From Candidatus Hydrogenedens sp. (GTDB lineage: Bacteria > Hydrogenedentota > Hydrogenedentia > Hydrogenedentales > Hydrogenedentaceae): DNA of 64,000 nucleotides. Positions 47,991 through 64,000 of the stretch are shown piece after piece (the stretch's first letter is position 1; each line of letters starts with the position of its first letter). The DNA lies in contig JBMFRC010000001.1 of assembly GCA_049968235.1 (NCBI GenBank), forward strand, positions 192,001-256,000. The letters run 5' to 3'. The notes under the pieces were generated by a model, which was not told where the DNA came from, ran no database searches, and saw only the letters and a program-made list of their open reading frames with translations. The position numbers and the translations under genes were made by a program.

Positions 47991-48752
47991 ATGATTAAAC
48001 AACAAGAAAAGAATAATAACCATAACCCTGAAATGGATTTACGACAAAGGGGAGAAATTTTCCGACTGTTTAATCGAATTGCTCGTAAATATGATATAAC
48101 AAACCATTTATTATCTTTTGGTCAGGATGCTCATTGGCGAAGGGAACTTGTTCGTCAAATTCAGATAGAAAAAGGACAGGATTTTTTTTTATTAGACCTT
48201 GCAACAGGGACAGGAGAGGTTATAAAAACTTTTCGAGAATTCTTTCCTGATTTGGGTTGTGTTATTGGAATAGACCTTTCCGTAGGGATGATACGGGAAG
48301 GGATGGAGAAACTTCCGAATAATACACAGAAGCACTTATTTGCTGTTATGGATGTTCTATATCCGGGCATCAAATCCGAGACCATCAATGTAGTAACAAT
48401 GGCTTTCGGAATACGCAATGTATCAGAAGTTTCTCTGTCATTGAAAGAAATCTACCGTGTATTGAAACCCGGAGGACAGGTATTAATTCTTGAATTTGGT
48501 CTTCCCCAAAAAGGGTTATGGAGAACGATATACCTATTTTACTTGCGATATTTGCTCCCATATATAGGTGGTTTCTGGACAGGTTGCCCTTCTGCATACC
48601 GATATTTAAGCGAAACAATATGCAAATTTCCTTCTCATAATCACTTTTCTTTATTATTAGAAGAAGTAGGTTTTACAAATGCAAAATGGACAGAATTCAA
48701 CCGCGGTGCTGTATTGTTATACACTGCCAGTAAACCCGGTAAAAGCGAATAA
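47991..48752 (+). CDS. ubiE: demethylmenaquinone/ubiquinone C-methyltransferase
   Basis: 253 aa; UbiE/MenG family sequence (LDLATGTG motif I, FGIRN, PGGQVLILEF). Confidence 0.85.
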   Translation: MIKQQEKNNNHNPEMDLRQRGEIFRLFNRIARKYDITNHLLSFGQDAHWRRELVRQIQIEKGQDFFLLDLATGTGEVIKTFREFFPDLGCVIGIDLSVGMIREGMEKLPNNTQKHLFAVMDVLYPGIKSETINVVTMAFGIRNVSEVSLSLKEIYRVLKPGGQVLILEFGLPQKGLWRTIYLFYLRYLLPYIGGFWTGCPSAYRYLSETICKFPSHNHFSLLLEEVGFTNAKWTEFNRGAVLLYTASKPGKSE

Positions 48753-48928
48753 CTACATATTAAAATTTCTAAATAAACACATCATCTTTTAGAAAACTGT
48801 TCCCAATTTACTCGATAATAAAATGGATAATATTACAACATTTATCCTCCTGACGCATATAAATTGATTTCTTTTATAATTAATTAGGTACAATTTCTGA
48901 ATTACTTCGCAAAAAAATCTTTGTTAAT

Positions 48929-49684
48929 TTAGAATTTTGGCGTTTCTATAGATAAAAATGGCAATAACTCCTGTCGTGTTTCCTCAATGGTATGTAATTT
49001 CCCGTTATGTGCACATAAGAAATCCTGACATTTCTTAAAATAATCTGGATTTTCAATATAATTATTAATCAAATTTACTTGTTTTTTTGCATCATAAATC
49101 AACTCATGTGCAATATTCCCTTGAGAGAAATATACCTTATCTATTCTTCTTCGGTATCCTGAAAGAACACGGATATAGAACATTAAATTAATTCGACGAA
49201 AATAACCATCAGGAACCCGATTTTGAATACATATCTGGTCATATGCTTCGTCTATATCATCCGCATGGAGATTGGTAGCAAGAATATGACCGTAATCTAA
49301 TAGTACAAAATAGTTTTGCAATGCGGAACCCCAGAGGTATGCAAACCAATGTCCTGCTCCAATCTCATGACATATATAACATTTTTTCTTATTAGTAATC
49401 CCCTGTTTTATTCCTTGTTTAATTTCTTGTTCTGAGGCAGATACAAGTTGGACATCTATCGGAACAAAATTCAGTAAAGCACCCATTATTGTTGTTTTTC
49501 CTGCTCCCCCCGGATTGGCGCCTACAAGGAACGATGCCCCCTGACTAATTCGATAAAGGGCAAAACTGGCTAATTCTATATTTAGTGTTTCTCGTTCTAA
49601 CAGGTCAAAAATGGAGAACATTCGTCCTCCTCGTTGATTACACCGATTAATTTCATTACAATGCAAAATAACTTCTGCTTGCAT
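48929..49684 (-). CDS. uncharacterised P-loop NTPase
   Basis: 251 aa; Walker A GANPGGAGKTT near N-terminus; no further family motif recognised; gene is an island between two AT-rich spacers. Confidence 0.5.
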   Translation of the reverse strand: MQAEVILHCNEINRCNQRGGRMFSIFDLLERETLNIELASFALYRISQGASFLVGANPGGAGKTTIMGALLNFVPIDVQLVSASEQEIKQGIKQGITNKKKCYICHEIGAGHWFAYLWGSALQNYFVLLDYGHILATNLHADDIDEAYDQICIQNRVPDGYFRRINLMFYIRVLSGYRRRIDKVYFSQGNIAHELIYDAKKQVNLINNYIENPDYFKKCQDFLCAHNGKLHTIEETRQELLPFLSIETPKF

Positions 49685-49933
49685 AATAACCTCTTCTATC
49701 TATATCTATGTTTATTTTTCAGGATATTTTACTAAAATTTAATATCATGTTAATGATTTCTTAAAAAACTATAACAGAATAACTTTTAAAATACCTTATT
49801 TTTTTAGAATAAATTATGAAAAGAAAAAAGTTTCAACAAAAGAGGTTTTATCATATTTTTGTTTTTATCAGCTATAATTTATTATTTTATTATTATTCTA
49901 TTTTTATTAACATTAAAATAAGGATTAACTAAA

Positions 49934-51727
49934 GTGAAAAATTCTATGCTATTTAAAGGTTTTCAAGGAAAACTATTGTTCGGAGTAATTTTAACATACA
50001 TAATATTAATTATTATTCAGAGTATCTTGTTCTTTTACGGTAAAAATTTGGCTGAGTCTCTTTCAAAAAATATAAATACATCGGCAGAGGCGAGTCACCA
50101 ATTTAACGAGTTCTGGACAGTAATAGATAGTTTTATATCTAATAGGACTCCGATTTCAGAAATAGAAAACAAAAAAGAACTTATAATAAAAAATGATTTC
50201 TTCATCCCTTTCAAGAAAGAAATTGAAGATATACTACAACTCTGTTCGGAAATTGACACAATACGGAATAATAATTTACAGATAAAAGCTGATGTCAAGA
50301 AAACGGCTGATGAAAATATATTGCAATCTGATACTTACATTAATGAAGTGGTAAAAAGACTTACAGACCCGGCAGAAGAAGGTAAAGTAACCACATTAGA
50401 AAAGTTGGTTATTGTTGGGGCTTTAATAAATACAACCACTAATTACAAATTACTCAATATATCCGAAAGATTATCTTATGACTTTACCGCCCGAGAAGAG
50501 ATTATGAACTTTTTCAAAGTTTTGTTTGAAAATGTGGATAGAGATATAGAGAGATTAAAGAATACAGATTTTGCACAACTACCTGTAAATGCCAAAAAAG
50601 CAGGATTATTAATGAATGAACTAACGGTCAAATATATTGGTAATTTAGAAATTTTAGACCAGAAAATATCTTCCTTAAATCTCATAGGTCGAGATACTTT
50701 TACAAAAATTGAATCTGCTCCTATTCAGTTGGGGAAAGAGAGTATGCTAAAAATCATTAGAACTACGAGAAATAATATTATAATAAGCGTAAGTATCATT
50801 CTTATATCCGCTTTCATTATTTTGTATGTTATTCGAAAAGTAGCAAAAGATATATATGAAATTACAGATACTCTTCGGGAATCTGCATTATCTGTTTTAT
50901 CCGTGGTTCAGGAGTTAACAGGAGGAAGTCAAATCCTTGCGGAATCTACTTCTGAACAGGCAGCATCCATTGAAGAAATAACCTCTACACTCGAAGAACT
51001 TTCCTCTATCGGGAAGAAAAGTGCAGACAATTCTTTCAAAGCAAATCAAATAATCCAGAACGAATTAGTAGAGATTAAAAAAGTGGAAGATTCCATTAAG
51101 AGTTTGAGCACATATATGAAAGAAGTGGAGAATGTCAGTTTTGAGACATCTAAGGTTATAAAAACAATTGATGAGATTGCATTTCAGACAAATCTTCTTG
51201 CATTAAATGCGGCTGTTGAAGCGGCAAGAGCGGGTGAAGCAGGTGCAGGTTTTGCCGTAGTTGCAGATGAAGTTCGACATTTAGCAATGAAGGCTGGTGA
51301 GGCGGCTCAATTAACATCATCTCTTATTGGACAGACTGTAGATAAAGTTAAACAAGGTAGTGCCATTACCAATAATGCATCTGAAAATTTCCAAAAAATG
51401 GTGGAAGGGGTTCTTGTGGCTTCAAATATAATGGAAGAAATAACAAATACTTCCGCATCTGCCTCTAACGGGATTGCTCAGGTCACGAAGGCAATAACAG
51501 AAATTGATAAAGGGACACAGCAAAATGCCGGTGTTGCAGAAGAAAGTTCTTCAACGGTTGAGAACTTAAAATCAGAAGTTCAGATACTCTACCAATCTAT
51601 GGGAAAACTGGCACAATTAATAGGTCAAAAAATAGAACAAAAACAATCTGTCAATATTAAAAGAAAAACTTCCTCATCAACTATCGATGCTTTGATTTCT
51701 CTACCTAAAAATGACACGAGTAAATAG
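49934..51727 (+). CDS. methyl-accepting chemotaxis protein
   Basis: 597 aa; N-terminal TM + periplasmic region, second TM, highly conserved signalling domain [27 protein letters not shown]. Confidence 0.88.
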
Positions 51728-51811
51728 CACAATATCCTTCGATTTTTTTTCGTAAAGAATGGTTTCTGTCCTATAGTCCTGATTATTTCTCTGATACAAT
51801 AGAAATATCCA

Positions 51812-52585
51812 GTGTTAATTACAATAAAGTGCTTTTATATGGGTTTCAATCGTATTGCTAAGTTTTATCCACTGCTATTTGATGAAAAGGCTCGATTAAC
51901 ACGAGAAGGCCCCTTGTTGCTGGAAATCCTAAAACAATATAGACGACCTGTACATGTGTTAGACCTTGCCTGTGGTTCGGGTGTACATTCTCGATTCTTT
52001 GCAGAACAGGGAGCAGATGTTATCGGGGTAGATGTTAGTCCTGACATGTTAAAATATGCAAAAAAGCAAAGCCAATCGGAAAGTATTCATTATATTGTAG
52101 GCAATATTGTTAAATTACCCCTTATCGGGCATTGGGATTTTATTCTATGTCTTGGCAATTCTCTATGTCTGTTGCCTGACAGGAAACATGTCTATGATTT
52201 CTTTGCTCAAATAAAAAACTTACTATCATCTCATGGAACATTTATTTTACAAATTCTCAATTACAGTCATCCCGATATAAAAGAAATACAAACAAAATGT
52301 ATGCAAAAAGAAATAGATGGTAAAAAAGTAACTATTATCAAGACATTAACCCCGGACAATGATGTAGTTTTCCTTTCTATTAATTATTTTGCCCAGGTTC
52401 AAGGGAAGTATGAATTATTCAGTGAATCAAATATATTATTAAAACTTTCATTATCCGAATTGTTAAATTACTCTAATGAAGTTGGTTTATCCGTTCTATC
52501 TACTTATGGAGATTTTCAAAAATCAACTTTTAATTCCACAACGAGTAAGGATGTAATAATTATTTTTTCCAGGAAATTCTATTGA
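51812..52585 (+). CDS. class I SAM-dependent methyltransferase
   Basis: 257 aa; VLDLACGSGVHS motif I, DVS motif II. Confidence 0.75.
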   Translation: MLITIKCFYMGFNRIAKFYPLLFDEKARLTREGPLLLEILKQYRRPVHVLDLACGSGVHSRFFAEQGADVIGVDVSPDMLKYAKKQSQSESIHYIVGNIVKLPLIGHWDFILCLGNSLCLLPDRKHVYDFFAQIKNLLSSHGTFILQILNYSHPDIKEIQTKCMQKEIDGKKVTIIKTLTPDNDVVFLSINYFAQVQGKYELFSESNILLKLSLSELLNYSNEVGLSVLSTYGDFQKSTFNSTTSKDVIIIFSRKFY

Positions 52586-52667
52586 AAAAGTGAATTTATT
52601 TTAATTGTTTTTGATATACTACTTTCTTTAATAAATAGCAAAGTGAAGTAATAAAAGGAAATAGCCT

Positions 52668-54575
52668 ATGCGTAAGGTAGAAAAAAACTGGAAAAGTATC
52701 AAAATACCTGAACAAATAAAGAACATTTTATTGAAATCTAAAAAAGTCTCCATTGCAACAACTATCAATGAATTAATTGAAATAGCCTGTGGCTCCTCAG
52801 AACCTGACGCCCAATTTAAGGTTGAATATGATGTGCCGGGAATGGGTAAATATCATGAAGTTACAGTAAATCGGGTTCGGAATGGTGTCTGTGTCAATTA
52901 CACGGAACCGTATATGAGAAGAAGGGACCCCGATTGCACATTTATAGGAGATAAATATCCAACAGATAAACCTTACTTTGAAGATGTATTTGGCTATCCT
53001 TTTGAAAAACTTGCTAAAGAGACTTTCGTCTGGCTACAAAATCAGGAATTAATAATGTTTGGTTTTATGGCAGGTGGAGATGCATTAGGGAAACATGCTC
53101 TTGCAATTGCCCCTGCTAATGCTGGTTTCTTTGCTTTAGGTCTGGCACTACTGCAAGGAATTGTATCGTGGGATGTGTTAACTACTAAATTTGACCCGAA
53201 ATTAATTATGTATGTCGCACCTGTGTTCCGTCATACTCATTTTAATAAAAAACAGGTTGTCGTGCATCGCCGGGGGAAAGAATATTACGAAATTTTTTCC
53301 TATAACCTGTATCCGGGTCCCAGTGCAAAGAAAGGAGTTTATGGGTATCTACTTCATTTAGGAGAACAGGAAGGCTGGTTGACAACACATAGTTCCACGG
53401 TTCAGGTAATTACCCCCTATGATAATGTGGTAACAATTTTGCATGAAGGTGCCAGTGGCGGTGGAAAAAGTGAAATGCTTGAATCAATTCATCGTGAAGA
53501 AGATGGACGTATTTTAATAGGCACAAATATCCAAACAGAAGAGCAGATTTTATTAGAATTGCCTCGTGCCTGTGCTTTGAGACCCGTTAGCGATGATATG
53601 GCACTTTGCCACCCCTCTCTCCAGCGAGGAGATGGCAAAATTACGGTAACTGATGCAGAAAAGGGTTGGTTTATTCGTGTAAACCATATAGGTAGATATG
53701 GAATGGACCTCACCTTTGAAGCACTTACCGCGCAACCCCCAGAACCTTTGTTATTCCTGAATATTAATGCGGTCCCGAATTCTCGTGCTATGATATGGGA
53801 ACATACAGAAGATGAACCCGGCATACCCTGTCCCAACCCCCGAGTAATCGTCCCTCGTCGTATTATGCCAAATGTGGTTAATAAACCTGTTCCTGTTGAT
53901 ATTCGTAGTTTTGGTGTACGAACACCTCCATGCACAAAAGAAAAACCTACTTATGGCATTATTGGAATGTTTCACCTTTTGCCATCTGCATTAGGCTGGT
54001 TATGGCGTTTAGTAGCACCACGTGGACACGATAATCCATCCATTATCAAGACAGAAGGAATGACTTCCGAAGGTGTTGGCTCCTACTGGCCCTTTGCTAC
54101 AGGAAAGTATGTAAACCATGCCAATCTACTCCTTGAACAGATATTAGCCAGTCCTCGTGTTTATCATATCCTTTGCCCTAACCAACATATAGGAGCATGG
54201 AAAGTGGGATTTGCACCCCAATGGTTAGCACGCGAATATCTCGCACGAAGAGGTATTGCCCGTTTAAAACCCAGTCAATTGGTCACTTCTCGCTGTCCCT
54301 TATTAGGACATACATTAAAAATGGTAAGAATTGAAGGAGAAGTTTTACCAAACTTTTTGTTTGAAACTTACCTCCAGCCGGAAGTAGGTGAAGAGGCTTA
54401 TGACGAAGGTGCCGAAATTCTTTACAACTTTTTTCATAAGGAATTAAAGAAATATCTTATTCCAGATTTACACCCATTAGGGAAGACAATTATCGAATGC
54501 TTTTTGGATCGCGGTTTCCTTAACGATTATATGACACTTTTGCCGACACCCTATATTGATACATCCCAGGATTAA
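52668..54575 (+). CDS. large uncharacterised protein with HprK-like P-loop (GASGGGKSEMLE)
   Basis: 635 aa; Walker A closely resembling HPr kinase/PEPCK-type P-loop (G-x-SG-x-GKSE-x-LE) at aa ~255-268; rest unassignable. Confidence 0.55.
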   Translation: MRKVEKNWKSIKIPEQIKNILLKSKKVSIATTINELIEIACGSSEPDAQFKVEYDVPGMGKYHEVTVNRVRNGVCVNYTEPYMRRRDPDCTFIGDKYPTDKPYFEDVFGYPFEKLAKETFVWLQNQELIMFGFMAGGDALGKHALAIAPANAGFFALGLALLQGIVSWDVLTTKFDPKLIMYVAPVFRHTHFNKKQVVVHRRGKEYYEIFSYNLYPGPSAKKGVYGYLLHLGEQEGWLTTHSSTVQVITPYDNVVTILHEGASGGGKSEMLESIHREEDGRILIGTNIQTEEQILLELPRACALRPVSDDMALCHPSLQRGDGKITVTDAEKGWFIRVNHIGRYGMDLTFEALTAQPPEPLLFLNINAVPNSRAMIWEHTEDEPGIPCPNPRVIVPRRIMPNVVNKPVPVDIRSFGVRTPPCTKEKPTYGIIGMFHLLPSALGWLWRLVAPRGHDNPSIIKTEGMTSEGVGSYWPFATGKYVNHANLLLEQILASPRVYHILCPNQHIGAWKVGFAPQWLAREYLARRGIARLKPSQLVTSRCPLLGHTLKMVRIEGEVLPNFLFETYLQPEVGEEAYDEGAEILYNFFHKELKKYLIPDLHPLGKTIIECFLDRGFLNDYMTLLPTPYIDTSQD

Positions 54576-54828
54576 AATCTTTCAAACATAAATAACACTT
54601 CTAAAAAGCAATACTATCTGTAATTTGTAGCAGAAGTTAGATCTGAATGTACGAAAAGAAGGATAGTATAAACAAAGCAAATACATTCATCTATTTATAT
54701 ATGTGTTGGAATTCATATAATTTGTGAGTAAAAAATCTTGCATGCAAAAAAACATCAATAGTGAAAAAATATAATTTATTCACAAGACACGAAGTTCGTA
54801 TAATACTCACAAAGATTATTTATAACAA

Positions 54829-55035
54829 GTGAAAAAATTTTATATTTTTATATACTACACATTTCTAATTGCTCTATGGGTTATTTTAATTTGTCTCTCC
54901 CTGGAAGTTGGGACACATATATGCCTAAAATTAGCAAATTATGTATATAAACCTTATTTCGATATGCAAAATCGAAAAGTCTATCGAATGATAGACCCTC
55001 GAAGAGCAAAAGAAACAATTTTCCTCAAAAGTTAA
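54829..55035 (+). CDS. possible small hydrophobic peptide (68 aa)
   Basis: ORF in AT-rich island; one strong TM segment; coding status uncertain. Confidence 0.2.
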   Translation: MKKFYIFIYYTFLIALWVILICLSLEVGTHICLKLANYVYKPYFDMQNRKVYRMIDPRRAKETIFLKS

Positions 55036-55150
55036 TATATCACCAAAAAATGAACTTATAATCCCTGAAATAATAAATAATGCATACACACAAACGGGCA
55101 ATTTTTCTTATTCATGTAAAAAAGAATATGAGTTAGCTTTAGATGGAATA

Positions 55151-55336
55151 ATGGAAGCCCAATTTGATAAAAATGGGAATCTAATTGAATCCTGTGGTGA
55201 ACCTCTGATTGAAAGGGCTGTTATTGACCTGCTTCAAGGCACTCCCTTCGGTTATTATGACCCTGATTGGGGTGTATTAAAAGAAAAATTAAAACATCCA
55301 CCCGAAGAACCTTTTTCCATGCGATTAAATATATGA
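55151..55336 (+). CDS. small acidic protein (61 aa), gene 1 of an ATGA-coupled pair
   Basis: stop TGA overlaps ATG of next ORF (aatatATGAtg). Confidence 0.3.
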   Translation: MEAQFDKNGNLIESCGEPLIERAVIDLLQGTPFGYYDPDWGVLKEKLKHPPEEPFSMRLNI

Positions 55337-55680
55337 TGATTTACAATCTGCAATATAATATAGACATTAGACCTAACAATGATGGTTTTACTCTTCTTGC
55401 AAGATTAATAAAAGACGATTTCCCATACTCATTAAATCATCCTTCAACTCCCATAACGGACGAAACACAATGGCTTGTTCATTGGTATGCATACAAACCT
55501 AACTTCAAAGCACACCCGACAGCACCTTCCACAAACAATTTCGGTTTAAACCATTTCTGCGATGTATGTCATACCACTCGTCTGGGGATTGAAGAAAAAT
55601 CCAATATAATTGCCCAATATATCGCTCAATGGCTCGAAAGGAAAAACATTTTCCCCAAAAAATACATGGGAAATAATTAA
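55334..55680 (+). CDS. small protein (115 aa from MMIYNL), gene 2 of coupled pair
   Basis: ATG at 55334 overlapping upstream stop; contains CDVCH motif; no family recognised. Confidence 0.3.
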
Positions 55681-55710
55681 CATTCAATACCTTGCCTCTT
55701 ACAACCCTTA

Positions 55711-57533
55711 TCAAGGTTTTATCATCGCAATACCTACCAGCGGTAATTCTGCAATATGGAATGTAAGGTATGTATTAGTATCGCTTAATTTTGTTATTTC
55801 ATAATTCACAATGTCCTGTTCCTTCTCAGGTGTGGATAGTAATACCTTACCGATAGAAGGATTAGAAACTTGAACAGAAATAGAAATATCTTGTGCAGGT
55901 ATTACCTTATCTTCATAGGAGGAAATGCGTTCAATATTTAAATTATAAAGTAGAACGAAAATAGCATCTGGTGATTCGCGTACTACACCCCGTACCACTC
56001 CATTCCCCGTTATTTTTAAAAATGGGAGAGGAAGATGTAAATATAATTCCTTTAGAAAGGAAGATTGACCTGCATCTATAAATACCTTATTACTGCTCTT
56101 ACACAGTTCAGATATTGATATGGAACACGAGGGTGGAATATATCCCGGTTCAGAGGCAAGTATGATATTTGCTTCCGAAAAATATTTTTCAAAATTACTT
56201 TCCGAGGCAACTATATAAAGAACATTCAATTGAGTTAGTCGTTTTGCTATATTTAATTCCTTGCAATCTTCATGTTTAATCCATTCTTCAAAGGGAAAAT
56301 ACAACAACACATCATATCTCTGTTTTGAAGTAATTATTGGGGGAGCATTCTTTTTAAGCCACTGCACAAAGGGGCGAATTACCTGAATCATTTTTCCGCG
56401 TTGAGATTCTTCCCTTGTAGGCCAGAGCATATAATTTGTATTTCGAGTAAAGCATTCGAATATCGCCAGATTTGTAAGATGGGGTGGAGTATGATAATCC
56501 CCATTCGCTATAGTTACAGATACTAACGGTTTCGGTCCGAAAATAGAATGTACCAAATCGTATACAAAACTACACTCTATCGTTTTTCCCCGTGAAGTGC
56601 AACGCGGAGTTGACCCCATATCCTCAATAACAACAAAATCCTGAGATTTGCTCATTTTTTATATATTATATGCATATCTATGACATTGAGAAAATATCAC
56701 TTCGGGAGTATTAAGACTATTATTTGCAGTAATCAGGGCTTTGGGATTTATCTCCCGTGCATAATTCTTTATCTCTAAGAGAAAATCACGAGCAATGGTG
56801 CAACGAAACTTTTTGAATTCAATAGGTTTCTTTTGTGCTAATTCTCTCAAGGCATGTAACGAGGTGTCTTCAACCTTTTCCCCTTCGGATTCAAGAAACT
56901 GTAAAAACTTCTGCATGCAATAAGGGCAATAACATCCTTGTTGATGAACCGTCGGATTATCAAAAAAATACCATCTAATCCAATTTCTAATGAGGTCTTT
57001 ACGAGATATTTTTCATATTTTCGCCAATCCGGATGGTTCATACACGCGGGGTGATACTCTCCTCCATACCAGGAACGAAGGGGTGCACCTTTCACATCTT
57101 GTTGAAGCCATTTTTCCGGTGGGCTCGAGAATTGTTGTTTAAATTCAGGTTGTCAATACCGGTCAAAGGTCTCTAAACCGACAATAGAAGTAGAACATAA
57201 ATAACCCAGGAGTATAGGAATGCCTAAAGATTTTGTATGCTGAACATATTCATGGACATCCCGTTTAGTGTTCTCCCATTGTTCAGCGGGAGGAATACCC
57301 ATATATCCACAGACTCCTAAACCTGTAGCATAGATAACCGATACCCCGCATTGATATGCAGGTTCCGCTTGCTTATCAAACTTATCCAGATGGTCAAACG
57401 CATGCAAAGCGAAAAAATCGCATGCTTCATCGGAGAAACAAGAACCATATGCTCCAAATATAAACAATATTATCAATAATCTAAGAGAATGAATATGGTC
57501 CATTTTATAAATCTTTTTAGTAAAAACCATCAT
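55711..57533 (-). pseudogene. decayed gene for a ~600-aa secreted protein, split into four ORFs by in-frame TGA (57153), a frameshift (~56847..56916) and in-frame TAA (56659)
   Basis: ORFs 57153..57533 and 56847..57095 share a frame, separated only by TGA; 56659..56916 and 55711..56655 share a frame, separated by TAA plus one codon; N-terminal fragment has a signal peptide. Confidence 0.55.
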
Positions 57534-57647
57534 TTTTATTTTATAAAGATACTAACCTGTTTGATAATATCACATAACATTATAATAATGGTTTCCCCTC
57601 CTTTACATCATTTGAAAACGCATAAATCATAATAAATGAAGAACCAT

Positions 57648-58583
57648 TTATAAACCGGCTCTTTTCTTAAAATCGAATAGTTGAGGAGCATGAAATTCTG
57701 AAGAAAATTCTTGAATCCTTTTATTTGCTAAATTTACATAACTTTCGTTTATGTCATATCCGACATAATGTCGGGCAGTTCTTATTGCTGCAATTGCTGT
57801 CTGTCCACTTCCAATAAACGGGTCTAAAATAACTTCCCCTTCAAAGGTATAAAGTTGAATTAATCTGTAAGGTAGTTCTATAGGGAAAGGAGCGGGATGC
57901 CCCACCTTCGTTGCTTGTTCAGCAGAGAAAGACCAAACACTTTTTGTAAACTCGAGGAATTCTTCTTTTGAAATAGTATCTTTCCTATTTAGATTTCCTC
58001 TGCTGAATGTACCTTTGGAAAAAACCAGGATATACTCATGAATATCTCTAAGTGTCGGATTTTTTGCTGAAAGCCAACTTCCCCATGCAGTTGAAGGGCT
58101 ACCACTGGAATTTTTATTCCAAATAATTTCACCCCGCATTAAAAATCCCAAATCAAGCATATCTTCAATGATAAAAGTGTGTAATGGGATATATGGCTTT
58201 CTCCCAAGATTGGCAATATTAATACATACTCTACCTCCAGGAACCAATACCCTTTTAACTTCTTGCCATACCCTTTTTAAGAATTGTCTATATTCCCTTA
58301 AGGTAAGATTTTTGTCATATTCTTTACCAACATTATAGGGAGGAGAAGTAACCATCAAATGGATACTATTTTCTGGTAACTCCTCCATGTTTTCACTTGA
58401 TTTACAAAATATTTTATCTATAACTTCAATGGGAACGGAATTCTCAATATATTCAGATTTTTTTTCTTTAGGCAGTCCTTCATACAATTTACTTGCATAA
58501 AACGAAGTAGCATCATGATTTATTCTTCCGGGCGAACCGAAAGCACTTGTTTTTGTGCCATTTTTCCTTCGGTTAATTTCCAT
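57648..58583 (-). CDS. DNA methyltransferase, N4-cytosine/N6-adenine beta-class (DNA methylase N-4/N-6 domain)
   Basis: 311 aa; SPPY catalytic motif (LMVTSPPYNVGKEYD), C-terminal FxGSG SAM motif (DPFIGSGQT). Confidence 0.85.
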   Translation of the reverse strand: MEINRRKNGTKTSAFGSPGRINHDATSFYASKLYEGLPKEKKSEYIENSVPIEVIDKIFCKSSENMEELPENSIHLMVTSPPYNVGKEYDKNLTLREYRQFLKRVWQEVKRVLVPGGRVCINIANLGRKPYIPLHTFIIEDMLDLGFLMRGEIIWNKNSSGSPSTAWGSWLSAKNPTLRDIHEYILVFSKGTFSRGNLNRKDTISKEEFLEFTKSVWSFSAEQATKVGHPAPFPIELPYRLIQLYTFEGEVILDPFIGSGQTAIAAIRTARHYVGYDINESYVNLANKRIQEFSSEFHAPQLFDFKKRAGL

Positions 58584-58787
58584 CTATTCCTCCTTCCACA
58601 TGTCAATCCACCTTTTATATGAATTATACTTTATCGCTATCTTTTGCCAATGTATTTCAATCTTTTTGGTTTGTTTATGGTAAAGTAATTTTGACAGTGC
58701 CTCTTTAGAAAGTTCAACCCCTCTTGGATTAGTTCCAGGTTTCGGAAGTTTAATATAATTTTTTCTCCCCATTTCATCAAAAATCAT
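58584..58787 (-). CDS. small ORF (67 aa) between putative REase and MTase; possible C-terminal piece of a frameshifted REase or a small regulatory protein
   Basis: stop abuts the MTase ATG; begins 11 nt after the 138-aa ORF stop in a different frame. Confidence 0.3.
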   Translation of the reverse strand: MIFDEMGRKNYIKLPKPGTNPRGVELSKEALSKLLYHKQTKKIEIHWQKIAIKYNSYKRWIDMWKEE

Positions 58788-58798
58788 TCTTTGAACAC

Positions 58799-59215
58799 TT
58801 AATGGAATATAGTAAAACCACCTTCAGCATTCCAATTAATTTGAACAAGTAGCATATCGCAGTAAGGATAATATTTGTTAAGGAATTCTTTTGCTTTCTC
58901 AGAATCAACTGTCCATACAAGTTTAACTCCTCCTAAATTCTTTCCTGTAATCGTTTTCATAGATATCGGCTCACCAAACAATTTGACATCTACTTCTGGC
59001 TCAGTAACAGGAATTTCAGTCTCTACATTATTCTCCCCAAATTTATAAATAAGTAAAGCCACTATTATTTTTTCTCTAACCGAGCCAACCTCCATCCCAA
59101 TTTTACCCGCTCTTGAACTTTCCATATCTGCAATTTGAAATAAGTGAGGTAATCTTTTCTTTATCTTTTCTACAAGTATTTTATCTTCAAAAAGTTTTAA
59201 TAATTGTTCTGACAT
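58799..59215 (-). CDS. putative type II restriction endonuclease (or N-terminal part of one)
   Basis: 138-aa ORF directly upstream of and co-oriented with the MTase in an AT-rich island; EPEVDVK resembles a (D/E)xK nuclease core; no homology confirmed. Confidence 0.35.
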   Translation of the reverse strand: MSEQLLKLFEDKILVEKIKKRLPHLFQIADMESSRAGKIGMEVGSVREKIIVALLIYKFGENNVETEIPVTEPEVDVKLFGEPISMKTITGKNLGGVKLVWTVDSEKAKEFLNKYYPYCDMLLVQINWNAEGGFTIFH

Positions 59216-59584
59216 ATCATGCCTTTGAATATTTAATATAAATAAAAAGATTTATCAAATCCGCCTTAATAAAATCATAATTGAATATTAGTTAAAATTT
59301 AATTCTTTCAACTATAACTATAATACGACTTTATTTTATCTTTATTATATTATAAATATAAGATTTTTTTGTCTAATTTTACATATCTATATCTTTACTG
59401 TATTTGTATAATTCCATTTTCCTATCTATCCCTTAATTTACTTTGAAATACAAAAATGACGATGTTTATTAATTCGTTTTTATTTTTCTGTCCGTTTGGG
59501 AATTAATTATTTATATCTTTTCTTTGACTGGTTGCAATCTATGACCCGGCGGATTGGGTATAATTTTGAAGGTATTGTGCCTTT

Positions 59585-61042
59585 TTAGCCTTTTTCTATA
59601 CGATGGATTTCTTCTAACTGTTTTTGTATCTTCATCTCCGCTTTTTGTGTTTCTATAATAGGGTCGCAGATAGAATGCAGGTAATCATTAAGTTCGTGGA
59701 CAACAGATGGGGCATTAACCTTACTGTCTTTTATCAAATTGTTAAGTTCTTCCGTGTCCTCATCTAAATTGAACAATTGATGAGGTGCATCCGAGTTCCA
59801 GATAAATTTCCATCCACCTTTACGAACCATAAAACTACTACCGCGTGTCCCATGCCCATGATATTCTGCAAATACGAAACGGTCTGGATTCTCTTCCTGT
59901 AATTTTTGTAAAGCGGTTCCTTTCCAATTTTTTGGTCGTTGCCGTTTCGTAGCATGGAAGAACTCCGCCTGTGCATCCAAAGTGGTTATTGGTGTTCGGA
60001 TGCGTCGTCCCTTTTCAAATCCGGGTCCACAGGCAAGCAATGGTACGCGGGCAGAGTCTTCAAACATGGAGCATTTCCACCACATACCAAATTTGCCTAA
60101 CATCTCTCCATGGTCAGATGTGTATATAAATATCGTATTCTTATTTAGTCCTGTTTGTTCCAGTGTGTCTAAAATCTTTCCTATCATCGTATCTACAAAA
60201 CTGACACAGCCATAATATCCCTGTCTCAATCTTTTTACATCTTCTCCCTGAATTTGGTCTGTTTCGAAATGATTTCGCAAATCAACCGCATAGGGATGTT
60301 GTGCGGAAGGCTGGTCTGGTCCATACTGTGGAATATCGCCCTTCCCCTCATACATTCCCCAGAAGTTCGGCTCCGTAAAATGAGGGAAATGTGGTGCAAC
60401 AACATTGACCCATAGAACAAATGGTTTATCTAATTGTGTTCCTTTCGTTTTAAGCCAATCTACCGCAGTATCGACCATTAACTGGTCATGACGATGTGCT
60501 TTCTCTCGTGGTCCCCAACCTTTGGCTCGTTCCTGCCCAGTCCCTTTGCGGATACATAACGGTTTTCGCTGAATAAAAGTATCCCCGGGGGTTCCACGAT
60601 TCCAACCATAATAAACCTCATTAAATCCCATTTCTTCTATCTTTCGATACACATCTGCCTTGCCAATATATACCGTATGCACTCCTTGTTCCGCCAGAAT
60701 AGAACCATAATTAGGGAAATTATCCAGAAATAATGTGCAATTGCTATAACACTGCGTTTCATGATTGTATAATCCACTTATCACTGAACTTCGACTTGGG
60801 AGACATAATGGCGATGGGCAATATACATTCTCAAAAACAACACCATTTTTTGCTATTCGTTCCATATTCGGAGTTTGCACAAAAGGATGTCCATATACCG
60901 ATGTATATCGTGGATTATGTTCATCTGACATCAGCATAACCACATTATATTCCTTATGCTCCGTCTCGCAGAACGGAACTTTTGACAATAACAAACTTGT
61001 CGCAATTGTTCCCTGTAAAAATTCCCTTCGATTCATTGACAT
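59585..61042 (-). CDS. Tat-secreted sulfatase (arylsulfatase family)
   Basis: 485 aa; twin-arginine signal (RREFLQG), sulfatase CxPxR signature (CLPSR) with downstream metal-binding motifs. Confidence 0.88.
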   Translation of the reverse strand: MSMNRREFLQGTIATSLLLSKVPFCETEHKEYNVVMLMSDEHNPRYTSVYGHPFVQTPNMERIAKNGVVFENVYCPSPLCLPSRSSVISGLYNHETQCYSNCTLFLDNFPNYGSILAEQGVHTVYIGKADVYRKIEEMGFNEVYYGWNRGTPGDTFIQRKPLCIRKGTGQERAKGWGPREKAHRHDQLMVDTAVDWLKTKGTQLDKPFVLWVNVVAPHFPHFTEPNFWGMYEGKGDIPQYGPDQPSAQHPYAVDLRNHFETDQIQGEDVKRLRQGYYGCVSFVDTMIGKILDTLEQTGLNKNTIFIYTSDHGEMLGKFGMWWKCSMFEDSARVPLLACGPGFEKGRRIRTPITTLDAQAEFFHATKRQRPKNWKGTALQKLQEENPDRFVFAEYHGHGTRGSSFMVRKGGWKFIWNSDAPHQLFNLDEDTEELNNLIKDSKVNAPSVVHELNDYLHSICDPIIETQKAEMKIQKQLEEIHRIEKG

Positions 61043-61139
61043 AACGGATTCCTTTCAATAGGACAACTCACAATTACTATTTTTGCAACCATTTTGCTAT
61101 TATAATAAAAGCATCTAAAAAAGAAAAGCGAGTACTCCC

Positions 61140-61532
61140 ATGCTTTGCCCAAATTGTAAAAAACAAATACTTCTTATCATGGAATACAATCAGATTGAAC
61201 TGGATTTTTGTCCGGAATGTTTAGGTGTCTGGCTCGATGCAGAAGAATTGCAATGGATATTAGGTGCCAATTTTGACGAACAAAGTTTATTCACAACATC
61301 TACAATTAACGAAGTAAAGAAAAAATGTCCCCGTTGCAGAAGCAATATGCATAAAGTTTTCCTTCCCGAAAATAATCAGGTCATTTACGATACCTGCCCC
61401 AATCAACATGGTTTCTGGTTTGACCGTGGCGAATTAGAAATACTCATTCATAGCCTTTCCGAATTTCCCGGTACACATTCCTTTCTTCAATGGCTCACTG
61501 AAGTTTTTGCCTACTCCAAAAAGGAAAAATAA
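61140..61532 (+). CDS. duplicated zinc-ribbon protein (zf-TFIIB-like, CPxC...CPxC x2)
   Basis: 130 aa; two CxxC...CxxC units each followed by WLD/WFD-EL motif. Confidence 0.65.
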   Translation: MLCPNCKKQILLIMEYNQIELDFCPECLGVWLDAEELQWILGANFDEQSLFTTSTINEVKKKCPRCRSNMHKVFLPENNQVIYDTCPNQHGFWFDRGELEILIHSLSEFPGTHSFLQWLTEVFAYSKKEK

Positions 61533-61663
61533 TCTGATTCCTTTGAGTAAAACAACAAAAGAAATCTTCTTGTAAAATTAAAATAACTGCCTCTTCCCTA
61601 TCTCCATCATTTTAATTCTAATCCTATTCATCCTGTTACTTATTTTTATCCATCTTAACGAAG

Positions 61664-61866
61664 TTTTGCACACTGAATATCAAGATAAAATTTGTGTATA
61701 AAGAAAACCCGTTTTACACATTGTTTTTTAATAAAAATAAGAAACGATTTGCATGGAAAACTATAGATTTTTTGTAACTTTTCCCCTATTTATCCACAGA
61801 TTATCCACAGGTTTTCAAAAGCATTATCCACGATATTCTGAACAATTTTTCCACATTTTATTCACC
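61664..61866 (+). promoter_or_regulatory. cluster of >=8 DnaA boxes (TTWTNCACA) with helical phasing, followed by AT-rich tract
   Basis: TTTTGCACA 61664; TTATACACA (minus) 61693; TTTTACACA 61712; TTATCCACA 61790 and 61801; TTATCCACg 61824; TTTTCCACA 61847; TTATTCACc 61858. Confidence 0.55.
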
Positions 61867-61871
61867 TAATA

Positions 61872-61887
61872 TTACTATATATTGTAT
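61872..61887 (+). promoter_or_regulatory. candidate NrdR box (TTACTATATATTGTAT vs consensus acaCwAtATaTwGtgt)
   Basis: 13/16 match including entire CwAtATaTwG core, ~210 nt upstream of nrdD. Confidence 0.3.
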
Positions 61888-62098
61888 ATTGGGAATAAAA
61901 TTCTACTTGACATTGTGTCCTGTTTGTTATAAAATAGTTTTATCTTTTTTGTTTTCTATGAAAATTTAATCAAACAGTAGTTAGCCCTCCTAAATCTTAC
62001 CCGAAGGCAAAAAATAACCTTATTTTTTGGGGATATTAGATTTGGGTGATAAAATTAAAGTTTAAATGAATAAAAGTTTAATTTAGGGAGCGTAGGCT

Positions 62099-64000
62099 AT
62101 GCAGAATTGGGAAATAAGTTCGGCTGAGATTTTTACAGACTTGGTTCCGTTCACGCATGTATTGAAGAGAGATGGGCGAAAGGTTCCTTTCTCTGCAGGA
62201 AAAATAACCCAAGCCATCTTAAAGGCAGGAAAAGCCACCGGTGAATTTGGGATAGATATTGCCCGTCGTTTAACTCTTCGTGTATTGGCACTTTTGCAAA
62301 CTATGCCATTAGAAGGACATCCCACTGTTGAAGAAATTCAGGACGCGGTGGAAGAGATTTTATTAATGTCACCATTTAAGAAAACCGCTAAGGCATATAT
62401 TCTTTATCGTGACCAGCATGCTCGCATCCGTGAGATGGTCAATAAAGCGGATGTAGATTTGATTGACCGCTATCTTGAAAAGATGGACTGGAAAGTTCAG
62501 GAAAACAGTAATATGGCATATTCCCTCCAGGGTTTGAACAATTATATTTCCAGTGAAATTAGCAAGGTATATTGGCTTAACAAAATCTATACACCAGAAG
62601 TACGAGAAGCACATCGTTCGGGAGACTTGCATCTACATGACCTTGGTTTGCTATCGGTATATTGTGTAGGCTGGGATTTGCAAGATTTGCTATTAAATGG
62701 CTTTCAGGGAGCACCGGGAAAAGCAGAGAGCAAGCCTGCCAAACATTTCCATACAGCATTAGGGCAGGTTGTTAATTTCTTTTATACCTTACAGGGTGAA
62801 GCGGCAGGGGCACAGGCTTTTAGCAACTTTGACACTCTTTTAGCACCTTTTATCCGTTATGATGGTTTAAATTATCGTGAGGTAAAGCAAGCACTACAAG
62901 AGTTTATTTTTAATTTGAATGTAGCAACACGGGTTGGTTTCCAAACTCCATTTACGAATGTTACATTGGACTTACAACCACCTGCCAATTTAGCCAATCA
63001 GCCTGTTATCATTGGTGGGGAATATCAAGATGCCACATATGGTGAGTTCGCAAACGAAATGAAACTATTTAATTCGGCGTTTCTTGAGGTTCTTTCCGAA
63101 GGAGATGCAAAAGGACGAGTATTTAGTTTTCCAATACCTACTTACAATATTACTAAAGATTTTAACTGGGATGACCCGGACCTTGTCCGTTTATGGGAAG
63201 TAACGGCAAAATATGGCATTCCGTATTTTGCCAATTTTATCCATTCCGATATGTCCCCTTGTGATGCCCGTTCGATGTGTTGTCGTTTACGGCTGGATTT
63301 GCGTGCATTAGAACGAAGAGGCGGTGGGCTTTTCGGGGCAAATCCATTAACAGGGTCCATCGGTGTTGTTACCATCAATATGCCTCGAATTGGCTACTTA
63401 TCTGCGAATGAGGATGAATTTTTTGAACGATTTGATAATTTGATAAATATTGCCCGCACCAGTCTCGAAACGAAGCGGAAGGTGCTTGAACAATTAACAG
63501 ATAACGATTTATATCCATACACGAAATTCTACCTGCGTAATGTATATCAACGATATAACCATTACTGGAACAATCATTTCTCTACTATTGGTCTGATTGG
63601 TATGAATGAAGCATGCCTGAATCTCCTTGGAAAGGATATTGGCACTTCAGAAGGCTTAGAATTTGCAATCCGAGTACTGTACCATGCCCGAAACCGGTTA
63701 AGAGAATTCCAACAGGAAACAGGTAATTTGTATAACCTTGAAGCAACTCCTGCTGAAGGGACCAGTTATCGTCTTGCTCGTCTGGATTATGAACGCTATC
63801 CGGATGCCCATTTTGCGAATACGGAACAACTCCGAAATGGTAGTGTCCCATTTTATACCAATTCTACACAATTACCTGTAAATTATACCGATGATATTTT
63901 CAAAGTGCTTGAGTTACAGGACCCACTACAGACACAATATACCGGTGGTACGGTTCTGCACATCTTTTTAGGGGAATCGGTAGCCAATCCTAATGCGGTC
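62099..64000 (+). CDS. nrdD: anaerobic ribonucleoside-triphosphate reductase (class III RNR), 5' 634 codons; continues beyond window
   Basis: my own translation from ATG 62099 (AGGGAG SD) is open to the window end; N-terminal ATP-cone (VLKRDGRKVPFSAGKITQAI), NrdD core motifs incl. CDARSMCCRLRLD. Confidence 0.85.
   Translation, partial: MQNWEISSAEIFTDLVPFTHVLKRDGRKVPFSAGKITQAILKAGKATGEFGIDIARRLTLRVLALLQTMPLEGHPTVEEIQDAVEEILLMSPFKKTAKAYILYRDQHARIREMVNKADVDLIDRYLEKMDWKVQENSNMAYSLQGLNNYISSEISKVYWLNKIYTPEVREAHRSGDLHLHDLGLLSVYCVGWDLQDLLLNGFQGAPGKAESKPAKHFHTALGQVVNFFYTLQGEAAGAQAFSNFDTLLAPFIRYDGLNYREVKQALQEFIFNLNVATRVGFQTPFTNVTLDLQPPANLANQPVIIGGEYQDATYGEFANEMKLFNSAFLEVLSEGDAKGRVFSFPIPTYNITKDFNWDDPDLVRLWEVTAKYGIPYFANFIHSDMSPCDARSMCCRLRLDLRALERRGGGLFGANPLTGSIGVVTINMPRIGYLSANEDEFFERFDNLINIARTSLETKRKVLEQLTDNDLYPYTKFYLRNVYQRYNHYWNNHFSTIGLIGMNEACLNLLGKDIGTSEGLEFAIRVLYHARNRLREFQQETGNLYNLEATPAEGTSYRLARLDYERYPDAHFANTEQLRNGSVPFYTNSTQLPVNYTDDIFKVLELQDPLQTQYTGGTVLHIFLGESVANPNAV

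What the first reader, a model, noticed from the sequence alone, without database searches (positions are those of the whole stretch)
54576..59584. AT-rich accessory island carrying an R-M-like module, a decayed gene and a coupled small-gene pair
Between the 635-aa gene and the sulfatase gene, the sequence becomes markedly more AT-rich and switches from housekeeping to accessory content. A beta-class SPPY DNA methyltransferase (57648..58583) is preceded, on the same strand, by a 138-aa ORF and a 67-aa ORF. These two are separated by only 11 nt and a +1 frame change, and the 67-aa ORF's stop abuts the MTase ATG. This layout fits a type II R-M operon whose REase is either small or split by a frameshift, making it a possible solitary MTase. 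Upstream lie a four-piece pseudogene and two small ORFs joined by an ATGA overlap. No integrase or tRNA flanks the island.
Basis: partly seen in the sequence, partly recalled or inferred. Interest (0 to 1): 0.5.

Follow-up and report, generated by a model that had tools for sequence, protein, structure and literature searches.

The report
Disabled ThaI restriction-modification cassette beside two pseudogenes
A 2-kb ThaI-type restriction-modification cassette was inserted between two native genes of a Candidatus Hydrogenedens bacterium; a one-base deletion has killed its restriction enzyme while its methyltransferase is intact, and the neighbouring "decayed gene" and "small-gene pair" are two ordinary dead native genes.

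Summary
The sequence features are real, but the "5-kb accessory island" reading is only partly right.

- **Split restriction enzyme.** The 138-aa and 67-aa ORFs are one ThaI-family type II enzyme (PF15514; ThaI cuts CG^CG). It is split by a 1-nt deletion in a T run, inside the family's invariant GGFYYIPL motif. Adding one T gives a 210-aa protein that matches 210-aa homologues end to end (70-74% identity) and the solved ThaI structure 3NDH.
- **Methyltransferase.** It is intact, beta-class with an SPPY motif, and 80-81% identical to methyltransferases that sit beside intact ThaI homologues. M.ThaI makes m4C at CGCG.
- **True insert.** Only about 57534..59584 is inserted. Four related contigs have the sulfatase gene followed after 56-62 nt by an intact GHL15 gene.
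- **"Four-piece pseudogene".** This is that native GHL15 gene, carrying two in-frame stops plus a window-specific T7/T8 frameshift.
- **"ATGA-coupled pair".** Together with an upstream 68-aa ORF, these are remnants of one ~506-aa GDSL/SGNH hydrolase gene. It has lost its catalytic domain (~230 aa) and has frameshifts.

No tRNA gene, Rfam RNA or terminal repeats were found. This is an ordinary decaying restriction-modification system and a likely solitary m4C methyltransferase. Interest is low.

The parts
57534..59584 (-). Inserted segment (about 2.05 kb, GC 0.315) carrying the R-M cassette. It replaces the 56-62-nt sulfatase-GHL15 spacer seen in relatives. The right edge is exact: homology ends at the sulfatase stop. 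The left edge lies somewhere in 57534..57647.
   Evidence: DNA homology to L088/L089 ends at 59584/59585 and resumes near 57440. Sulfatase and GHL15 are adjacent in L088, L093, L095 and L096. GC.
59216..59584 (-). AT-rich (GC 0.23) non-coding leader upstream of the restriction-enzyme gene; presumed promoter region of the cassette (inferred).
   Evidence: No ORF of note, no Rfam match. Promoter-like hexamers are present but not enriched over shuffles.
58799..59215 (-). N-terminal fragment of the ThaI-family restriction enzyme: 138 aa, of which the last 4 (TIFH) are out of frame. It holds the catalytic E48/D76/K87 and the intercalating M41.
   Evidence: PF15514 positions 1-128, E=5e-64; PADLOC REase_II; alignment to 3NDH and to homologues.
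58814..58817 (-). Frameshift site. A T4 run (GGT GGT TTT^ACT) stands where a T5 (GGT GGT TTT TAC) is needed to encode the invariant GGFYY. This is a 1-nt deletion.
   Evidence: Adding one T restores a 210-aa protein. L001 has the same T4. L002 has T5 but TAC->TAA at the next codon.
58584..58787 (-). C-terminal fragment of the ThaI-family restriction enzyme (67-aa ORF, -1 frame). It holds the base-contacting N163 and the C-terminal helices that are domain-swapped in ThaI. The MTase Shine-Dalgarno sequence (GGAAGGAGGA) lies in its last codons.
   Evidence: PF15514 positions 139-203, E=2e-25; ThaI structure paper PMC3025569; junction conserved in homologous loci.
57648..58583 (-). Intact beta-class DNA methyltransferase of 311 aa (motif IV SPPY, motif I FIGSG). 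It is an M.ThaI-like predicted N4-cytosine methyltransferase for CGCG.
   Evidence: PF01555 E=2e-48; PADLOC MTase_II, 458 bits, full length; 80-81% identity to MTases beside intact ThaI genes; PDB relatives include cytosine-N4 MTases; identical protein in two other assemblies.
55711..57533 (-). Native GHL15-family (PF14885) glycoside-hydrolase-like pseudogene. Lesions: in-frame TGA at 57153..57155, a T7-for-T8 frameshift at 56962..56968 (window only), and in-frame TAA at 56659..56661.
   Evidence: The reconstructed 607 aa covers 98% of 597-aa Hydrogenedentes proteins at 78% identity. Translation. Homopolymer difference against L001/L002. Syntenic beside the sulfatase gene.
54829..55680 (+). 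Remnant of a ~506-aa GDSL/SGNH hydrolase gene. It consists of the 68-aa ORF (54829..55035), the 61-aa ORF (55151..55336) and the 115-aa ORF (55333..55680). There are at least two frame changes, and about 230 aa (the catalytic domain) is deleted at 55545/55546.
   Evidence: Exhaustive HMMER: the 115-aa ORF hits 506-534-aa proteins in two stretches. Collinear tblastn of P0242: aa 10-64, 88-166, 150-239 and 470-504 in frames 1/2/1/1. PF13472 lies at 258-486 of the homologues.
59585..61042 (-). Right flank: intact sulfatase gene (485 aa), 87-89% identical to the sulfatases of relatives.
52668..54575 (+). Left flank: DUF4914 gene (635 aa). Synteny with relatives ends at its 3' end.

Best explanation
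The genome is a Candidatus Hydrogenedens relative (phylum Hydrogenedentota). A two-gene ThaI-type type II restriction-modification cassette was inserted into the short spacer between a native sulfatase gene and a native GHL15 glycoside-hydrolase-like gene. The restriction gene comes first, and its stop abuts the ATG of a beta-class N4-cytosine methyltransferase gene.

In the intact system, the 210-aa PD-(D/E)XK homodimer would cut unmethylated CG^CG, and the methyltransferase would protect host CGCG sites by m4C.

Here the restriction gene has lost one T from a T5 run, inside the invariant GGFYYIPL motif. The product is truncated at 138 aa. It keeps the catalytic residues E48/D76/K87. It lacks the base-contacting Asn (N163, ThaI N169) and the domain-swapped C-terminal dimerisation helices. 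Restriction is therefore abolished.

The methyltransferase gene is intact and keeps its own Shine-Dalgarno sequence. The locus most likely acts now as a solitary m4C CGCG methyltransferase, the usual intermediate in the decay of a restriction-modification system.

The other features of the finding are two decayed native genes: the GHL15 pseudogene and a gutted GDSL/SGNH hydrolase gene. The fragments of the second imitate an ATGA-coupled gene pair.

**Shown:** family membership, the lesion, operon architecture, the insertion site, and the identity of both pseudogenes.
**Inferred:** CGCG/m4C specificity, that the MTase is expressed and active, loss of restriction activity, and horizontal origin.
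For: - **One split gene.** The two ORFs cover PF15514 positions 1-128 and 139-203. The +1T reconstruction matches positions 1-203 at 330 bits. It covers 100% of many 210-aa ThaI-family proteins at 70-74% identity and aligns with ThaI 3NDH at E=2e-89.
- **Position of the break.** It falls between the invariant F134 and Y135.
- **Functional residues.** With an offset of 6, the ThaI residues map as M47, E54, D82, K93, K104, W107, N169 = M41, E48, D76, K87, K98, W101, N163. All are invariant in the alignment.
- **Cognate MTase of ThaI.** It is an N4 enzyme giving m4C at CGCG (PMC3025569 and PMC11033074).
- **This MTase.** It is full length, has SPPY, and is 80-81% identical to MTases beside intact ThaI genes. 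The R-stop/M-ATG junction and Shine-Dalgarno sequence are conserved.
- **Architecture.** R->M adjacency is seen and in most of 36 metagenome loci.
- **The lesion is probably real.** The same T4 occurs in the independent assembly L001. L002 instead has an in-frame TAA at Y135.
- **Recent inactivation.** Only 6 of 114 family-invariant positions differ, all conservatively; intact homologues differ at 0-7.
- **Insertion site.** Sulfatase and GHL15 are adjacent (56-62 nt apart) in L088, L093, L095 and L096, and homology ends exactly at the sulfatase stop.
- **Pseudogenes.** (GHL15; SGNH).
Against: - No methylome or expression data exist, so MTase activity and its CGCG/m4C specificity rest on homology.
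- CGCG is only weakly depleted in the window: 40 sites against 51.8 +/- 6.7 expected.
- The window also differs from both other assemblies by one base in a homopolymer (T7 against T8). Homopolymer miscalls in this assembly therefore cannot be excluded, although the T4 itself is shared with L001.
- The L002 variant lies 31 nt from a contig end, where assemblies are error-prone.
- No mobility gene, terminal repeat or close donor (above 74% identity) was found. Horizontal origin rests on absence from relatives, the wide phyletic spread of the family and low GC.
Confidence: 0.85

Rival explanations
1. The restriction enzyme is actually intact, and the T4 run is a homopolymer sequencing or assembly error. 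The locus would then be a fully functional ThaI-type restriction-modification system.
For: The window differs from L001 and L002 by one base in another homopolymer (T7 against T8 at 56962-56968), which hints at homopolymer error in this assembly. Apart from the frameshift, the restriction ORF is as well conserved as intact homologues.
Against: The same T4 is present in the independently assembled L001 (GCA_049969095.1). The third assembly, L002, carries a different null lesion (TAA) at the adjacent codon. No assembly shows an intact allele, and no exact intact allele exists in the JGI metagenome contigs.
Confidence: 0.08
2. The split is functional. Either full-length enzyme is made at low level by programmed -1 ribosomal frameshifting or transcriptional slippage at the T run, or the 138-aa and 67-aa products assemble as a two-subunit enzyme. 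This would be phase-variable or attenuated restriction.
For: The lesion lies in a homopolymer. The 67-aa ORF has its own ATG only 11 nt after the first stop. Frameshifted R with intact M recurs in other ThaI loci, L130 and L131.
Against: - GGU UUU ACU is not an X XXY YYZ slippery heptamer. From general knowledge, a 4-nt run is far below the roughly 7-9 nt needed for appreciable transcriptional slippage or phase variation.
- There is no Shine-Dalgarno sequence before the 67-aa ORF.
- Both ORFs lose the invariant YYIPLSVQR strand.
- The L002 allele is a plain nonsense codon.
- L130 and L131 break at a different position, about residue 106.
Confidence: 0.03
3. The whole of 54576..59584 is one horizontally acquired accessory island. 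It would carry the R-M module, the decayed gene and a coupled small-gene (toxin-antitoxin-like) pair.
For: GC of the whole stretch is in the lowest 3% of 5-kb windows. Nothing downstream of DUF4914 is syntenic with the five closest genomes that carry DUF4914.
Against: - The GHL15 pseudogene is syntenic with the sulfatase gene in L088, L089, L093, L095 and L096 at 69-78% protein identity, and its GC is 0.370.
- The small ORFs are collinear fragments of one GDSL hydrolase gene whose best homologue comes from a Hydrogenedentota genome.
- The small ORFs have no PADLOC, Pfam or NCBIfam hit.
- No tRNA gene or terminal repeats were found.
Confidence: 0.04

Closest known systems
ThaI / M.ThaI restriction-modification system of Thermoplasma acidophilum (PDB 3NDH; Firczuk et al. 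2011, PMC3025569)
   Same: - Same Pfam family (PF15514), aligned full length at E=2e-89.
- The catalytic E/D/K, the intercalating Met and the base-contacting K/W/N residues are all conserved.
- It is partnered with an N4/N6-type beta-class MTase, and M.ThaI is reported as m4C at CGCG.
   Different: - The restriction gene here is frameshifted and truncated before the C-terminal recognition and dimerisation part.
- The host is a bacterium of phylum Hydrogenedentota, not a thermoacidophilic archaeon.
- The protein starts 6 residues later than ThaI.
- Specificity and activity are untested.
Intact ThaI-family R->M cassettes in metagenomes and MAGs (for example L083-L087, L097-L119; NCBI name 'ThaI family type II restriction endonuclease')
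   Same: - Same gene order, strand and abutting R-stop/M-ATG junction, with the Shine-Dalgarno sequence in the last R codons.
- R is 74% and M is 80-81% identical.
   Different: Those have an uninterrupted 210-211-aa restriction gene. They sit in unrelated genomic contexts.
Solitary (orphan) DNA methyltransferases that arise by decay of the partner restriction gene (a general concept recalled from the R-M literature, not tested here)
   Same: Intact MTase beside a recently inactivated restriction gene. The same state occurs in other ThaI loci, L130 and L131.
   Different: There is no evidence here of any regulatory role, or of long-term conservation of the MTase as an orphan. The lesion looks recent.
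Structurally characterised beta-class MTases: TTHA0409 (2ZIE), cytosine-N4 MTases 8S9M/8S9N, M.PvuII (1BOO)
   Same: PF01555 fold. Sequence similarity E=3e-36, 3e-21 and 2e-13 respectively. From general knowledge, an SPPY/SPPF-type motif IV is typical of N4-cytosine enzymes.
   Different: These are distant relatives with other or unknown specificities. None is cognate to a ThaI-family enzyme.

Membership tests
ThaI family type II restriction endonuclease (PF15514) | Full-length match to the family profile and to family members | tested here: met
   After restoring one T: PF15514 positions 1-203 of 203, 330 bits; 100% coverage and 70-74% identity to 210-aa members; 3NDH at E=2e-89.
ThaI family type II restriction endonuclease (PF15514) | Catalytic Glu54/Asp82/Lys93, intercalating Met47 and base contacts Lys104/Trp107/Asn169 (ThaI numbering) | tested here: met
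   E48, D76, K87, M41, K98, W101 and N163 are present and invariant in the alignment. The offset of 6 is checked by the PD and (D/E)XK landmarks given in PMC3025569.
ThaI family type II restriction endonuclease (PF15514) | Uninterrupted reading frame giving the complete, roughly 210-aa protein | tested here: not met
   A 1-nt deletion at 58814-58817 splits it into 138 aa and 67 aa. It is a pseudogene of the family, not a functional member.
ThaI family type II restriction endonuclease (PF15514) | Cleavage of CG^CG | not testable with these tools
   Needs enzyme assays.
Beta-class N4-cytosine DNA methyltransferase (M.ThaI-like, PF01555) | PF01555 domain with motif IV (S/D)PP(Y/F) before motif I FxGxG (beta order) | tested here: met
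   PF01555 covers 74-288, E=2e-48. TSPPYN lies at about residue 79 and DPFIGSGQT at about residue 250 in the translation.
Beta-class N4-cytosine DNA methyltransferase (M.ThaI-like, PF01555) | Orthology with MTases that partner ThaI-family restriction enzymes | tested here: met
   80-81% identity over the full length to the MTases immediately downstream of intact ThaI genes in L083, L084 and L087. The same pairing is seen in most of 36 loci.
Beta-class N4-cytosine DNA methyltransferase (M.ThaI-like, PF01555) | m4C modification of CGCG | not testable with these tools
   Inferred from M.ThaI, from SPPY, and from the absence of adenine in the site. It needs a methylome or a protection assay.
Functional type II restriction-modification (defence) system | Both restriction and modification genes intact | tested here: not met
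   R is frameshifted in the window and L001 and has a nonsense codon in L002. M is intact.
Genomic island (54576..59584 as one acquired unit) | Absent from the same locus in relatives | tested here: not met
   Met only for 57534..59584. The GHL15 gene (55711..57533) is present beside the sulfatase gene in five related contigs.
Genomic island (54576..59584 as one acquired unit) | Integrase, tRNA target or flanking repeats | tested here: not met
   No tRNA gene in the window. Only chance-level AT-rich repeats. All ORFs are accounted for without an integrase.
Coupled small-gene module (toxin-antitoxin-like pair) | Two independent small genes with homologues of similar size that occur as a pair | tested here: not met
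   No Pfam, NCBIfam or PADLOC hit. The only homologues are 506-534-aa GDSL hydrolases, matched collinearly across three ORFs and two frames with a 230-aa gap.
GHL15 glycoside-hydrolase-like family (PF14885) | Full-length homology to family members, and an intact frame | tested here: not met
   Homology is met: 98% coverage and 78% identity to 597-aa proteins that carry PF14885. An intact frame is not met: there are two in-frame stops plus one frameshift.

The most novel reading that the evidence does not exclude
Co-existing strains of this Hydrogenedens population may have disarmed the same restriction gene independently. One allele is a 1-nt deletion (window, L001). The other is a TAC->TAA nonsense change at the adjacent codon (L002). 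All keep an identical methyltransferase. This would indicate active selection to lose CGCG restriction while retaining m4C methylation, that is, an orphan m4C methyltransferase being domesticated in an uncultured phylum.
Probability: 0.2. Interest if true: 0.35.

Novelty: new member of a known kind. Interest (0 to 1): 0.15.

Why it matters
- **For annotation.** The locus should be annotated as one ThaI-family restriction pseudogene plus an intact M.ThaI-like methyltransferase, one GHL15 pseudogene and one GDSL-hydrolase pseudogene. It should not be annotated as seven or eight hypothetical small genes or as a toxin-antitoxin-like pair.
- **For biology.** It predicts m4C at CGCG in an uncultured Hydrogenedentota bacterium, with no matching restriction barrier. 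That would matter for methylome-based binning or for future genetic work.
- **As an example.** It shows a restriction-modification cassette landing in an operon spacer and then decaying restriction gene first.

None of this challenges current understanding.

Tried and rejected
- **Terminal repeats** around the cassette: only short AT-rich chance matches.
- **Promoter and terminator scan:** counts do not exceed shuffles. A TTGGCA-16-TATAAT match lies inside the 3' end of R, upstream of M (58650..58623). Its -35 is fixed by the invariant Trp-Gln codons and its -10 is not conserved in L083/L087, so it is not claimed.
- **Rfam** over 54000-60000: nothing at E<=0.1.
- **tRNA genes:** none.
- **ThaI homologues on plasmids or phages:** none found.
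- **Exact-pattern scan of JGI metagenome contigs** for this gene's intact, frameshift or nonsense allele: no hit.
- **Protein-based metagenome scan:** no relative closer than 71%, so no donor was identified.
- **CGCG avoidance:** 40 sites against 51.8 +/- 6.7 expected, not significant.
- **Stop-codon recoding in the GHL15 gene:** rejected. The two in-frame stops differ (TGA, TAA), and the same codons end neighbouring genes.
- **Programmed frameshifting at T4:** rejected. There is no slippery heptamer and the run is too short.
- **Defining the left island border from genomes that share DUF4914:** failed. Every relative has different genes downstream of it.
- **Word-based homologue search of the small pair:** it found only the pair itself. 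The exhaustive search was needed.
Full report
**Source and copies**

The window's DUF4914 protein (52668..54575) is 93% identical to that of Candidatus Hydrogenedens terephthalaticus. Its next-best matches are other Hydrogenedentota MAGs and several unclassified ones. The only database copy of the 115-aa ORF is named "Candidatus Hydrogenedens sp.".

The stretch 52126..64000 is 99.94% identical to a contig of GCA_049969095.1 (L001). The stretch 55952..58843 is 99.9% identical to a contig of GCA_049971155.1 (L002). Three assemblies of one species can therefore be compared base by base.

**The restriction-modification module**

The 138-aa ORF (59215..58799) matches Pfam ThaI (PF15514) positions 1-128 at E=5e-64. 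The 67-aa ORF (58787..58584) matches positions 139-203 at E=2e-25.

The upstream extension of the second frame reads ...RWFYYIPLSVQRMIFDEMG. The first frame reads ...NAEGGFTIFH*. Inserting one T into the run GGTGGTTTT^ACTAT (58814..58817 on the minus strand) joins them into 210 aa. The evidence that this is the original gene:
- It matches PF15514 over positions 1-203 at 330 bits.
- It aligns over 100% of its length, at 70-74% identity, with many 210-aa proteins that sources name "ThaI family type II restriction endonuclease".
- It aligns with the crystallised ThaI (3NDH) at E=2e-89 without gaps.

The break falls between F134 and Y135 of GGFYYIPL, a motif invariant in an 11-sequence alignment. 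The second ORF lies in the -1 (+2) frame relative to the first, as a 1-nt deletion predicts.

The ThaI structure paper (PMC3025569) names Glu54, Asp82 and Lys93 as catalytic, Met47 as intercalating, and Lys104, Trp107 and Asn169 as contacting or constraining the bases. It also reports that much of the dimer interface is built by domain-swapped C-terminal helices. With an offset of 6, these residues are E48, D76, K87, M41, K98, W101 and N163 here, and all are conserved. The offset is verified by the paper's PD 144-145 and (D/E)XK 82-84 and 195-197 landmarks.

The 138-aa product keeps the catalytic triad. It loses N163 and the whole C-terminal part, so I infer it is inactive.

L001 has the same T4. 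L002 has T5, but the next codon is TAA instead of TAC, so it reads QINWNAEGGF*YIPLSVQR in one frame. Each allele is one step from the inferred functional sequence GGT GGT TTT TAC, which suggests two independent null mutations. The L002 site is only 31 nt from a contig end, so this point is tentative.

Apart from the frameshift, the gene is not degraded. It differs at 6 of 114 positions that are invariant in ten homologues, and all six changes are conservative. Intact homologues differ at 0-7 positions in the same leave-one-out test. The inactivation therefore looks recent.

**The methyltransferase**

The ORF at 58583..57648 is full length. It matches PF01555 (E=2e-48) and a PADLOC type II MTase model at 458 bits. 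It has TSPPYN followed later by DPFIGSGQT, which is the beta-class order.

It is 80-81% identical to the MTases immediately downstream of intact ThaI genes in L083, L084 and L087, where the restriction enzymes are 74% identical. In all these loci the R stop abuts or overlaps the M ATG. A GGAAGGAGGA Shine-Dalgarno sequence sits in the last R codons.

Both papers report that ThaI's partner is an N4 methyltransferase giving m4C at CGCG. From homology, SPPY and the lack of adenine in the site, I infer m4C at CGCG here. That is not shown.

R->M adjacency holds in most of 36 further metagenome loci. Two of them (L130, L131) also have a frameshifted R with an intact M, and three (L122, L126, L128) have both genes partial. 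Decay that starts with R therefore recurs in this family.

**Borders of the insertion**

The pseudogene upstream was the key. Joining its pieces gives 607 aa that cover 98% of 597-aa Hydrogenedentes proteins at up to 78% identity. These carry PF14885 (GHL15).

| Locus | GHL15 identity | Arrangement |
|---|---|---|
| L088 | 78% | 485-aa sulfatase (87% identical to the window's), then GHL15 after 60 nt on the same strand |
| L093, L095 | 69% | Sulfatase then GHL15, 56-nt spacer; the Zn-ribbon gene is also conserved |
| L096 | 75% | Sulfatase then GHL15, 62-nt spacer |
| L089 | 78% | The spacer holds an unrelated 320-aa ORF on the other strand |

DNA homology between the window and L088/L089 stops exactly at the sulfatase stop (59584/59585) and resumes inside GHL15 near 57440. 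The acquired segment is therefore about 57534..59584 (2.05 kb, GC 0.315). It is not 54576..59584.

No tRNA gene, terminal repeat, plasmid or phage copy, or close donor was found. The family's 70% or higher identity across Thermoplasmatales, Fervidobacterium, WOR-3, Nitrospirota, Elusimicrobia and others fits frequent horizontal transfer.

**The GHL15 pseudogene (57533..55711)**

- An in-frame TGA follows ...FDRY (57155..57153), and an in-frame TAA follows ...AYNI (56661..56659). Both are shared by all three assemblies.
- A T7 run at 56962..56968 is T8 in L001 and L002. In those assemblies the 82-aa and 85-aa ORFs form one 145-aa ORF reading ...GIFFDNPTVHQQGCYCPYCMQKF.
- The two stops differ and also terminate neighbouring genes, so recoding is not an explanation.
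- Its GC is 0.370, the window average.

Whether the cassette insertion uncoupled it from a sulfatase promoter and so started its decay is speculation.

**The "coupled pair"**

A word-indexed search found only the 115-aa ORF itself. The exhaustive HMMER search found 506-534-aa proteins that match it in two separate stretches: query 4-73 to residues 172-241, and query 65-107 to residues 464-508.

tblastn of the best one (P0242, from Hydrogenedentota MAG SKW61) maps collinearly onto the window:

| P0242 residues | Window coordinates | Frame | ORF |
|---|---|---|---|
| 10-64 | 54835-54999 | 1 | 68-aa ORF |
| 88-166 | 55085-55327 | 2 | 61-aa ORF |
| 150-239 | 55276-55545 | 1 | 115-aa ORF |
| 470-504 | 55546-55650 | 1 | 115-aa ORF |

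The missing residues 240-469 are the GDSL/SGNH domain (PF13472 at 258-486). The three ORFs are thus the wreck of one hydrolase gene, and the ATGA overlap is a frameshift junction.

**Composition and context**

The finding region has GC 0.335, against 0.372 +/- 0.019 for 5-kb windows. It is low but not the lowest, since 47.8-52.8 kb is 0.321. The low value comes from the cassette and the AT-rich spacers.

Downstream of DUF4914, each of the five closest genomes carries different genes. The DUF4914/GDSL-remnant junction is therefore a synteny breakpoint, not a definable island edge.

CGCG is not significantly depleted: 40 sites against 51.8 +/- 6.7 expected.

**Verdict**

This is a known kind of system, a ThaI/M.ThaI-type type II restriction-modification cassette, in a new host. 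It is caught at the common decay stage where the restriction gene is dead and the methyltransferase survives. Two unrelated native pseudogenes flank it.

The island extent and the "coupled small-gene pair" were not. Interest is low.

Noticed in passing
L089:8443-10001 (JGI 3300025631), compared with window 57534-59584: In one relative, the same sulfatase-GHL15 spacer that holds the R-M cassette here holds a different insertion. It is a 320-aa ORF on the opposite strand with an N-terminal hydrophobic segment and no Pfam, NCBIfam or PADLOC hit. The spacer may be a recurrent insertion site.
   Followed up: partly
window 56962-56968, against L001 and L002: The window has T7 (minus strand) where both other assemblies have T8. 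This is the only indel between the window and L001 over 11.9 kb. It is either a real strain difference or a homopolymer miscall in the window's assembly.
   Followed up: partly
window 52586-52667, against L003:7259-10000, L004, L005:2169-4743 and L006: Relatives carry about 2.5 kb of extra coding sequence between the MCP or SAM-methyltransferase genes and DUF4914. L003 has an 822-aa ORF there; L005 has 184-aa and 634-aa ORFs. None has a firm Pfam domain. The window has only an 82-nt spacer, so the upstream side of DUF4914 is also variable.
   Followed up: partly
L088:4122-4466 and L096:3751-4377: In two relatives the position convergent with GHL15, where the window has the GDSL-hydrolase remnant, is occupied by MNT/HepT-type (NTP_transf_2 / HepT-like) toxin-antitoxin genes. 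The MNT gene matches PADLOC candidate system PDC-S09.
   Followed up: no
L130:3001-4544, L131:46-1374, L126, L128, L122: Other metagenomic ThaI loci are also decayed. L130 and L131 have the restriction gene frameshifted near residue 106 with a full-length MTase. In L126, L128 and L122 both genes are partial.
   Followed up: partly
window 47800-52800: This is the lowest-GC 5-kb stretch of the window (0.321), lower than the flagged region. It includes a 597-aa methyl-accepting chemotaxis-like ORF (49934..51727) that is conserved in relatives at 70-87% identity. Low GC here therefore does not mark foreign DNA.
   Followed up: no
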